A stretch of DNA of 64,000 bases, from contig NC_043019.1 of the NCBI RefSeq assembly GCF_006345805.1, forward strand, positions 29,077,360 to 29,141,359. The letters run 5' to 3'. Below the pieces are notes generated by a model, which saw nothing but the letters and a program-made list of their open reading frames with translations, made no database searches and was not told the origin of the DNA. Position numbers and translations under genes: made by a program. Positions 531 through 56,225 of the stretch are shown one piece after another; positions within the stretch are counted from its first letter, which is position 1, and every line of letters begins with the position of its first letter. This stretch comes from Octopus sinensis. Its lineage: Eukaryota.

Positions 531-563
<33 letters not shown>

Positions 564-564
<1 letters not shown>

Positions 565-931
565 CGGTTTAAGTAATTGAGATTCAAGTGAATTCTAATG
601 AATTCACATGAATATGGTCCTTAACTAGGATGCACCGGAAATCTATATGGTGTTAACCATACGACAAATGGGGTGATTACAAATAGGAAAAAAGCAACAA
701 GAATGGATTAAAATCTCGGTGCAATTGTTTCGTACGAGGACATCTTTAATAAGCTACAAAAAATGCAGTAAATACAGATGGCTCGTACTCGTCAGCCGAA
801 AAAACATCAGAGAATTCCCAAACATCAAAAGGGGTAGATACAAAAGAGGGTGTAAGATTAACTGCATTGAAGAAAGTTCGATTCCTGGAGATCCGATGAA
901 AGGTTTTAAACTTACAGAATTCGTGCATGTC
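564..931 (-). mobile_element. Penelope-like element (PLE) terminal fragment carrying a hammerhead motif
   Basis: Flanked on both sides by (TA)n; contains a minimal hammerhead fold with palindromic stem III, as known for PLE ends. Confidence 0.55.
714..801 (-). ncRNA. Type I hammerhead ribozyme-like motif (cleavage triplet GCA instead of GUH)
   Basis: Minus strand: TTTCGG-CTGACGA-GTACGAG...CTCGTAC-GAAA-CAATTG-C-A-CCGAGA; stem I 6 bp, stem II 7 bp plus extension. Confidence 0.7.
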
Positions 932-949
932 TATATATAGCTCATATTG

Positions 950-993
<44 letters not shown>

Positions 994-1510
994 CAGGATT
1001 CTTTCAGTTTCTATCTACTAAATCCAATCATAAGGCTTTAGTGAGCCCAGGGTTATAGCAGAGGACATTTGTTCAAGGTGCTGCACAGTGGGACTGAACC
1101 TGAAACCTTGTGACTGGGAAGCAAGCTTCTTACCACACAGCTATTCCTGTGCCTATATGATGAAAAAGAAAGAGCTGAGGCCACAAGACGAAACAATAAA
1201 TTATGTTACTTTTAACAATTTATAATTGTGCTTAAAGCATTAAAAGTATCTTATTAATTTATGCATTGTATCAATTTTAATTAACGTTGCTTCATGATTA
1301 CATAAATTCCAGTGAATCTGTACAATTAAAGACATCCATAATTTATCACAATACAAATATGACTCCAACATGATCTTTTACACAAGTAATTTGTTTCTGG
1401 TACTAAAACTGTTTCCAGCCCAAGCTCTATGCAGTCGCTCAACCTTTTAGAAATTCTTCTGTCTAAAACACAGAAAACAACGCTATAAATAAAATAGTCC
1501 TAGATACATT

Positions 1511-32864: not shown

Positions 32865-33220
32865 GTTAAAAAAGCACCGTCCAAACATGGCAGATGCTAG
32901 CGCCGCCTGACTGGTGTCTATGTTGGTGACACGTAAAAGCACCAACCAATCATGGCTGTTTGCCAGCCTGCTCTGGCCCCTGTGCCGGTTGGCGTTAGGA
33001 AGGGCATCCAGGTGTAGAAACACTGCCAAATCAGACTAGAGCCTGGTGCAGCCTGGCTTCCAGACCCTGGTCGAACCGTCCAACCCGCGCTAGCATGGAA
33101 AACGGACGTTAAATGATGATGATGATCATCATCATCATTTAATATCCATTTTCCATGGTGGCATGGGTTGGACGGTTTGACTGAAAACTGGTAAACTGGG
33201 GAGCTGCACCAGGTTCCAAT
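32865..33220. mobile_element. Two family D elements joined tail-to-tail
   Basis: ...GGACGTTAAATGATGATGATGATCATCATCATCATTTAATATCC... Confidence 0.85.
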
Positions 33221-55048: not shown

Positions 55049-55151
55049 GTAGTAGTAGTAGTAGTAGTAGTTATAATAATAATAATAATGATAATAATAA
55101 TAGTTTCATAAATAAATAAAAAGAAAATAAAAAGAAAAACAAAAGACATAC

Positions 55152-55244
55152 CTCCGAATCAATAAAATCATTCCATAGGTTAGTGTTTTTTGCCTGCAAA
55201 TCATTGAGGCTACGTGACCAAGAGTGCTCGTTTATATTCCACAT
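55152..55244 (-). CDS. Candidate first coding exon of an unidentified gene: MWNINEHSWSRSLNDLQAKNTNLWNDFIDSE, phase-0 donor
   Basis: ATG at 55244, 31 open codons, strong donor GAG/GTATGT; unique sequence in a SINE-free island; weak start context; an alternative frame (MICRQKTL...) is also open. Confidence 0.42.
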
Positions 55245-56225
55245 AAGGGATAATGATAATAGAGGAAGAGGGAAATAATGTAGGGAGAACGAAAAAAATA
55301 TATATATGTATATGTGTGTGTATATATATGTGTATATATGTAAAATGACAGTGGGCCAAGAAAGACAGCGAAAAAAAAAGAAAAAACTAAATGAAGTTGT
55401 TGTAGTTGTGAAGGAACACTTCTACATGGTCCATGGTCACTGGGCCTGCTTATAATTGATATCCAGCTTTCACTTCAAAATAGTTTATGTATGCTGTTGT
55501 TTTTCGAAAAACAACATTGGATGAGGAGAATGGGAATGTACAGGACAAAGTTAAGGGTAAAGTAGGGAGAATAATAATTACAAAAAAAAAAAAAAAATTT
55601 GAAAGACAGAATTGTTACAGTTTGAATGATGTTAGCAGTGGGAGGGCCTTGTTGGAAATATATAAGTTTGGCTCAGTGGTGGTTGAAGTGTCGGTAGCAA
55701 TAGATGGAGATCCCTCTATAACAGTTTCACCACCAACTTCATTTGAAAATTACAAGTTAGTTGTAGTGATAGTAGTAGTAGTAGTAATAGTAGTAGAAGT
55801 ACCACCACCACCACCACCACCAATACTAATACTTCTTAAAAGTAGTAGTAGTAGTAGTAGTAGTAGTACCACAACCAATACTAATACTTCTTAAAAGTAG
55901 TAGAAGCTATACTACTACTACTACTGATAATGATGATGGTAATAAAAGTGATAAAAGTGGCCTCTCTGAAAATCCAGTAATCACTGAAGTTTGCTAGTTT
56001 ACAAACTAGCTGGCAAAGAAAGAGACATCGCTTGTACTTCCTTCCTCCAAGCAAGGTAGGGAAAAAAAAGCAAAGTACACAAACTAAGCAGTTAAATATG
56101 CAATAGAAATTAAATAGTAGGTATAAGGTGAGTGTCTTGTCTGTACAAAAGCTGTCATTCCAAAATTCCTGTCACCTCAATCCTGTCCTCTCACTCTCTC
56201 TCTCTCTCCACCAACACCTTACACA

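What the first reader, a model, noticed from the sequence alone, without database searches (positions are those of the whole stretch)
714..801. Near-perfect hammerhead ribozyme with an A15.1:C16.1 mismatch: a possible editing-gated ribozyme
Seen (minus strand): stem I TTTCGG/CCGAGA, core CUGACGA, perfect stem II GTACGAG/CTCGTAC extended by CATCT/AGATG around a long loop, GAAA, and a minimal stem III with the palindrome CAATTG. The only core defect is C instead of U at 16.1 (triplet GCA). Established: Penelope-like elements carry such minimal type I hammerheads, which cleave better as dimers; engineered hammerheads with inosine at 15.1 cleave NCH triplets; ADAR favours A opposite C; coleoids edit RNA heavily. 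Inference (speculative): A-to-I editing at position 728 could switch cleavage on. The simpler explanation is a single inactivating mutation. The motif is on the same strand as the candidate exon at 55.2 kb, so it may lie in a transcribed intron.
Basis: partly seen in the sequence, partly recalled or inferred. Interest (0 to 1): 0.72.

Follow-up and report, generated by a model that had tools for sequence, protein, structure and literature searches.

The report
Mutated hammerhead in Penelope retrotransposon fragment
This is one of about 940 copies of a hammerhead-ribozyme motif carried by a jumping gene; nearly all copies have the normal letter, so the odd letter here is most likely an ordinary disabling mutation, not an RNA-editing switch.

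Summary
It lies in a 383-nt, 5'-truncated terminal repeat (564-946, minus strand) of a young Penelope-like retrotransposon, inserted in a (TA)n run. A genome-wide pattern finds U16.1 at 935 places and non-U at 5, of which 4 are family members (2 C, 1 A, 1 G). The two C copies sit in different subfamilies, each nearest to U16.1 sisters. The rate at 16.1 (about 0.4%) matches decay at other core positions (about 0.5%). Folding puts A728 in a single-stranded bulge, not in an A-C mismatch inside a duplex, and no partner copy lies in the window or the adjoining 10 kb. No confirmed RNA run was available, so editing itself is untested. Verdict: a decayed copy of an ordinary PLE hammerhead. The scan has noted other hammerhead-bearing Penelope families in this genome, but not this one.

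The parts
564..946 (-). 5'-truncated copy of the pseudo-LTR plus long 3' extension of a Hydra-type Penelope-like retrotransposon; no ORF sequence
   Evidence: 97-98% identical to the other 29 loci fetched; matches the upstream repeat of full-length copy L062 at 92.9% over 393 nt
714..801 (-). Minimal type I hammerhead motif
   Evidence: Sequence, fold, descriptor scan with shuffles
789..795 (-). Catalytic core 5' part, CUGACGA (C3-A9), intact
   Evidence: Sequence; column counts
732..788 (-). Stem II (7 bp), a 5-bp extension and an inner hairpin in the long loop
   Evidence: Fold; stem II pairs standard in 144-147 of 147 copies
728..731 (-). Core 3' part GAAA (G12-A15.1); 728 is A15.1, the proposed editing site
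   Evidence: Sequence; predicted unpaired with P = 0.999 in the 92-nt monomer and 0.72 in 700 nt of context
721..728 (-). Stem III palindrome; 8-nt self-complementary in the family, cut to 6 nt here by C16.1
   Evidence: Haplotype counts in 147 copies
721..721 (-). U16.1-to-C substitution, not shared with its nearest sister copies
   Evidence: 1 versus 455 exact 23-mers; 2 C versus 935 U with the shorter pattern; nearest neighbours all U
548..565 (.). (TA)n target run at the element's 3' end
   Evidence: Sequence; a TA run lies at the 3' end of 140 of 147 copies
950..990 (.). (TA)n target run at the element's 5' truncation point
   Evidence: Sequence

Best explanation
This is a truncated terminal-repeat copy of a young Penelope-like retrotransposon whose hammerhead motif has U16.1 changed to C, most likely a neutral mutation after insertion that would cripple cleavage of this copy. 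Shown: the parent element is repeat-ORF-repeat with RT and C-terminal GIY-YIG motifs, and its copies sit in (TA)n runs. Inferred from PLE literature: the element's RT and nuclease copied the RNA 3' end into this TA run and stopped after about 380 nt. Also inferred: in the parent RNA two hammerheads pair through the 8-nt palindrome and cut after GUA. In this copy C16.1 breaks the A15.1-U16.1 pair and is predicted to pair with core G5 instead, favouring an inactive fold. In a dimer with a normal sister RNA, this copy's core could still act on the sister, but its own GCA site would be cut poorly.
For: Exact 23-mer: U 455, C 1, this copy. CpG-tolerant pattern with any base at 15.1: U 508, C 1. Shorter pattern covering more subfamilies: U 935, non-U 5, 4 of the 5 in the family. 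Sister copy L048 is identical at all 190 other shared columns and has U; the 8 nearest neighbours all have U. The second C copy (L107) differs from this one at 8 of 121 columns but from U-bearing L150 at only 2 of 121. Core decay elsewhere: 4 of 69 copies chosen by an upstream anchor carry a core lesion, about 0.5% per site over 11 sites, against 4 of 939 (0.4%) at 16.1. The palindrome is kept by a double change between subfamilies: of 147 copies, 79 G-C, 52 A-U, 11 G-U, 5 unpaired. P(G5-C16.1) is 0.96 here and 0.13 in U sister L003. All 26 hammerhead rows for Hydra-sheet elements in supplement S2 of PMC8557442 show T before the cleavage base.
Against: C arose twice, more often than A or G (1 each), though transitions are expected to be commoner. 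The matched control, a T-to-C change in stem II in the same GTA context, had 0 copies against 1 for 16.1; these counts are too small to separate. Loss of cleavage is inferred, not measured: hammerheads accept NHH triplets at lower rates (PMC3923133 passages). The palindrome covariation is one subfamily change inherited by many copies, so it counts as a single event.
Confidence: 0.93

Rival explanations
1. Editing-gated ribozyme: the copy is transcribed in an intron, ADAR turns A728 into inosine, the I15.1-C16.1 pair forms and cleavage is switched on as a regulatory step.
For: The chemistry exists: inosine in the ribozyme allows cleavage at NCH triplets (PMC8879150 passages citing Ludwig 1998). 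A-C mismatches maximise editing (PMC3185552 passages). All other core bases are intact here. A conserved minus-strand exon lies 54 kb upstream on the same strand.
Against: 2 C against 935 U, at the decay rate. The copy is young, within 1.6% of several sisters. In the monomer A728 is unpaired and C721 pairs with G5, so the A-C mismatch is not predicted to form. At the HDV site the mismatch needs 8 surrounding base pairs; here it would close a 6-bp helix at a three-way junction. No second copy lies in the window or the adjoining 9.9 kb to form a long duplex or a cis dimer. In a dimer the A facing this C16.1 comes from the partner RNA, not from 728 of the same strand (inference from the dimer model).
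Confidence: 0.02
2. C721 is an assembly error or a rare allele of the sequenced animal, and the locus normally has U16.1.
For: DNA-type runs X1, X2 and X4 show only the family letter at 721 among the contigs laid.
Against: Run X3 holds a 36-nt contig over 716-751 with no difference from the window, at depth 99, about twice its single-copy depth of 51-57. That fits both C loci being present as DNA. Contigs drop rare variants, so absence in the other runs shows little. X3 may be the sample the assembly came from, so a rare allele is not excluded.
Confidence: 0.04
3. The change was written into the element RNA before insertion, by RT error or by editing of an antisense transcript (A-to-G on the plus strand), and then fixed by retrotransposition.
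For: The change reads A-to-G on the plus strand. The other private change, at 922, is A-to-G on the element strand.
Against: The two private changes are A-to-G on opposite strands and 200 nt apart, not a hyper-editing cluster. No daughter copies share C16.1. The outcome is the same: a defective copy.
Confidence: 0.01

Closest known systems
Hydra-clade Penelope-like elements (Craig et al. 2021, PMC8557442), including Hydra-1_Obim of Octopus bimaculoides
   Same: DKT motif, RWx motif, C-terminal GIY-YIG without CCHH, CxCX5C linker, CxxC and CxH around the conserved E and N, (TA)n targets, and a hammerhead with a palindromic stem III ending in U16.1.
   Different: The repeat unit is about 4.8 kb against under 3 kb typical, with long Asn-rich stretches in the ORF. 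RWR stands in place of RWK. The hammerhead sequence is unlike that listed for Hydra-1_oBim and has a far longer stem-loop II, so this is another family. No tree was built.
Minimal hammerheads of metazoan PLEs (Cervera and de la Pena 2014, PMC4209133)
   Same: Type I topology, long helix II, short helix I, G10.1-C11.1 pair, palindromic 15.2-16.2, dimer-dependent design, mostly single truncated copies.
   Different: No extra base between A9 and 10.1; long structured loop II; this copy lacks U16.1.
PAc (Poseidon) of Anolis (Frangieh et al. 2024, PMC11167929)
   Same: Two classes of 3' end, read there as two internal RT start sites; a hammerhead in the repeat.
   Different: Here the end classes are about 120 nt apart (76 and 70 of 147 copies) rather than 30-40 nt, and both lie before the likely ATG, which is 208 nt past the cleavage site. 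In PAc the ORF starts inside the hammerhead.
Engineered inosine-15.1 and editing-sensing hammerheads (Ludwig 1998 as cited in PMC8879150; PMC3923133)
   Same: A15.1 facing C16.1 is the geometry that inosine would repair.
   Different: Those are synthetic, trans-acting designs; the inosine is put in chemically or lies on the substrate. Nothing here shows that ADAR makes I15.1.

Membership tests
Minimal type I hammerhead (PLE min-HHR) | Core CUGANGA and GAAA | tested here: met
   795-789 and 731-728
Minimal type I hammerhead (PLE min-HHR) | A15.1-U16.1 pair and NUH triplet | tested here: not met
   C at 721 in this copy, so it is a defective copy. Met by the family: 935 U against 4 non-U members
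Minimal type I hammerhead (PLE min-HHR) | Stems I and II with G10.1-C11.1 | tested here: met
   Fold; standard pairs in 132-147 of 147 copies per pair; no change on both sides among the commonest pair types
Minimal type I hammerhead (PLE min-HHR) | Palindromic stem III for dimer pairing | tested here: met
   6-nt palindrome here, 8-nt in 124 of 147 copies; double change between subfamilies
Minimal type I hammerhead (PLE min-HHR) | Self-cleavage | not testable with these tools
   Needs an in vitro assay
Penelope-like element | Pseudo-LTR, ORF, partial pseudo-LTR; inverted truncated partners | tested here: met
   L062: direct repeats 342 nt at 97%, 4.8 kb apart; 28 divergent pairs among 147 copies
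Penelope-like element | RT followed by GIY-YIG nuclease | tested here: met
   RVT_1 E = 7.8e-4 in 1 of 12 fragments and GIY-YIG E = 1.8e-4 to 1.4e-3 in 3 of 12, all below the Pfam cut-offs; YRDD and YVG motifs in order. The copies read are frameshifted
Hydra clade | DKG changed to DKT; RWK motif | tested here: met
   DKTG and RWR, a conservative change from RWK
Hydra clade | CxCX5C linker; no CCHH; CxxC and CxH around E and N | tested here: met
   Linker cysteines as CxCX5C, one Cys only between the GIY and YIG equivalents, CxxC before E, CxH after N
Hydra clade | Insertion into (TA)n | tested here: met
   140 of 147 3' ends
Hydra clade | Generally under 3 kb (descriptive, not diagnostic) | tested here: not met
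   Repeat-to-repeat distance 4.8 kb in L062
Hydra clade | RT phylogeny groups with Hydra | not tested
   No reference Hydra proteins were on hand; assignment rests on motifs
ADAR site-selective editing substrate | Target A in an A-C mismatch flanked by duplex | tested here: not met
   A728 predicted unpaired, P(728-722 side pairs) near 0, C721 paired to G5; prediction only
ADAR site-selective editing substrate | A-to-G in RNA against matched DNA | not testable with these tools
   No listed run is on record as RNA and all laid runs are contigs

The most novel reading that the evidence does not exclude
This insertion lies in a transcribed intron and A-to-I editing at 728 restores an I15.1-C16.1 pair, making it a natural editing-switched hammerhead that cuts a host pre-mRNA.
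Probability: 0.02. Interest if true: 0.8.

Novelty: new member of a known kind. Interest (0 to 1): 0.1.

Why it matters
As found, it matters little: one decayed copy among about 940. The family is a young, long Hydra-type PLE with near-identical copies (49 of 147 sampled share one 94-nt ribozyme haplotype) and a two-sided change in the dimer palindrome, so it is a convenient system for testing dimer cleavage in this clade. A natural editing-gated ribozyme would link RNA editing directly to RNA cleavage, but nothing here points to one.

Tried and rejected
Rfam found no hammerhead family; this reflects the long loop II and minimal stem III and is not evidence against the motif. I first read the 948 matches at up to 1 mismatch as per-site decay and dropped that: one search added only 53 copies for CpG decay, and searches showed subfamily variants at the stem I 3' end. 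My first C16.1 patterns required that base and so missed L107; one search corrected the count from 1 to 2. L103 is a chance match and was dropped. Expression: no RNA holder listed. Runs X10 and X15 are only guessed to be RNA; their contigs over 716-752 carry one unnamed difference from the window, which says nothing on this locus or on editing. Dimer energies could model only one stem I; the double-hammerhead-like form scored -36.4 kcal/mol for this copy against -39.6 for the U sister, both far above the minimum, so the calculation is not decisive. Ludwig 1998 and Kore 1998 were not held and were seen only as citations. Literature searches for a natural editing-gated hammerhead (listings and abstract starts only) showed none. 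Look-ups of earlier scan notes by sequence and by place were empty.

Full report
Observation. The fold is more stable than all 200 shuffles (z = -3.55). A descriptor allowing any base at 16.1 hits only this site in the window and nothing in 100 shuffles. Rfam does not recognise it.

It is a repeat. A search of the own genome (2.72 Gb) gave 2751 candidates, 40 scored, 66 matches; the 29 other loci fetched are 97-98% identical. All 31 other ribozyme copies that my first pattern caught in those loci had U16.1. Whole-genome counts: exact 23-mer 455 U and 1 C; CpG-tolerant 508 U and 1 C; a 17-mer spanning more subfamilies 935 U and 5 non-U, with 5 and 7 chance matches in the reversed controls. Four of the five non-U sites are family members: C here, C at L107, A at L104, G at L105; L103 is unrelated.

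The C is a late, local change. Among 147 copies distinct by coordinate (a sample partly chosen on these motifs), the 8 nearest neighbours of this copy all have U, and L048 matches it at all 190 other shared columns. L107 is 8 of 121 columns from this copy but 2 of 121 from U-bearing L150, so the two C copies arose separately. Only 721 and 922 are private to this copy at the threshold used; 668 was shared with one other copy. In 69 copies chosen by an anchor upstream of the ribozyme, 4 carry a lesion in the 11 core positions, about 0.5% per site. The non-U rate at 16.1 is 4 of 939, about 0.4%. A matched T-to-C control in stem II had 0 copies, which is not distinguishable from 1. DNA-type run X3 holds a 36-nt contig identical to the window over 716-751 at about twice single-copy depth, consistent with both C loci existing as DNA; X1, X2 and X4 showed only the family letter, which contigs cannot turn into absence.

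The parent element. L062 has direct repeats 4.8 kb apart around a frameshifted ORF region. Pfam gives weak RT and GIY-YIG hits in 4 of 12 fragments, below cut-off. The motifs run in the order RWR, DKTG, YRDD, CxCX5C, YVG, CxxC, with no CCHH and a terminal CxH. These are the diagnostic marks of the Hydra clade (PMC8557442, section 11 read; other passages). Its supplement (part 2 of 59 read) lists an Octopus family, Hydra-1_Obim, with a different hammerhead sequence. Copies here end in TA runs (140 of 147) and at two 3' positions about 120 nt apart, and 28 divergent pairs occur in the sample, as for PLEs in general. The window copy is the long-ended class, cut short at its 5' side, with no second copy in the window or the adjoining 9.9 kb. 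The organism label 'octopus' comes from an earlier scan note and was not tested.

Mechanism. Shown: architecture, copy counts, target sites. Inferred from PMC4209133 (parts 1-2 of 4 read): such ribozymes do not cleave as monomers and cleave weakly as dimers through the palindrome. From PMC11167929 (parts 1-2 of 4 read): the Anolis PLE ribozyme needs the element protein and is dispensable for insertion in vitro. The family keeps an 8-nt palindrome in 124 of 147 copies, through one two-sided change between subfamilies. Stems I and II show only wobble and decay changes among the commonest pair types, so they give no strong covariation. In this copy C16.1 is predicted to pair with G5 (0.96, against 0.13 in sister L003), and A15.1-C16.1 pairing is 0. 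PMC3088659 (passages) reports at least 10-fold loss for 15.1 and 16.1 mutants and describes rejected hits as mainly cryptic mutant hammerheads in repeats, which is what this is.

The editing idea. The chemistry is real: inosine permits NCH cleavage (PMC8879150 passages), and editing-sensing hammerheads have been engineered (PMC3923133 passages). The geometry is not favourable. At the HDV site the A-C mismatch needs eight surrounding pairs (PMC3185552 passages). Here A728 is predicted single-stranded (0.999 in the monomer, 0.72 in 700 nt of context), and in the active fold it would close a short helix at a junction. In a dimer the A facing C721 belongs to the partner RNA. With two C copies among about 940, at the decay rate, chance alone supplies such a case. 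The exon at 55.2 kb has homologues at 75-78%, so a minus-strand gene exists, but its extent is unknown. No run on record as RNA was listed, so transcription and editing remain untested rather than disproved.

Novelty and verdict. A previously unlisted-looking Hydra-type PLE family (checked only against the Hydra sheet of PMC8557442 and this scan's notes) with an ordinary minimal hammerhead; this copy is a point mutant. The retrozyme preprint 10.64898/2026.07.22.740005 (part 1 of 5 read) was considered, but this copy is not a tandem array and its parent encodes a protein. Interest 0.10. The editing-gated reading has probability about 0.02.

Noticed in passing
L067:3873-7628 (G000:C3, about 84,095,370-84,099,130): A second PLE family beside a copy of this one: 520-nt direct repeats at 98%, ORF with DKT and YRDD, and its own hammerhead-like motif with an 8-nt palindrome and U16.1. 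My pattern found no CxCX5C linker in it.
   Followed up: partly
L107 (G000:C30:14321239-14321255, minus): The only other C16.1 copy found; the short inverted arm of a two-armed insertion in a different subfamily.
   Followed up: yes
L151 (G000:C1, near 46,620,338, minus): A copy with G at 15.1 and U at 16.1, in a three-copy cluster; a genomic A-to-G at the very site proposed for editing, seen in 1 of 147 copies.
   Followed up: no
window 752-769 and older subfamily copies such as L152, L161, L162: The inner hairpin of loop II is kept, with stronger pairing, in a diverged subfamily, which hints at a structural role for the long loop (read by eye).
   Followed up: no
L062:6375-6423 and family-wide 3' ends: Two 3' end classes about 120 nt apart, both before the likely start codon, longer than the 30-40-nt tail described for other PLEs.
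   Followed up: partly
L062, L063, L065, L070 ORF between RT and nuclease: Long asparagine-rich low-complexity stretches lengthen the ORF region to about 3.2 kb and the unit to 4.8 kb.
   Followed up: no
window 55143-55247, minus: Short exon with a strong splice donor, conserved at 75-78% in two unnamed records; gene not identified.
   Followed up: partly
window 992-1160 and 1530-1905: Copies of a very abundant short interspersed repeat; depth thousands of times single-copy at 992-1160 (similarity of the second stretch read by eye).
   Followed up: no
window 33067-33184: Near-perfect 117-nt inverted repeat centred on an ATG/CAT trinucleotide run; scores as MIR4374 below the gathering cut-off. 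Probably two facing repeat ends.
   Followed up: no
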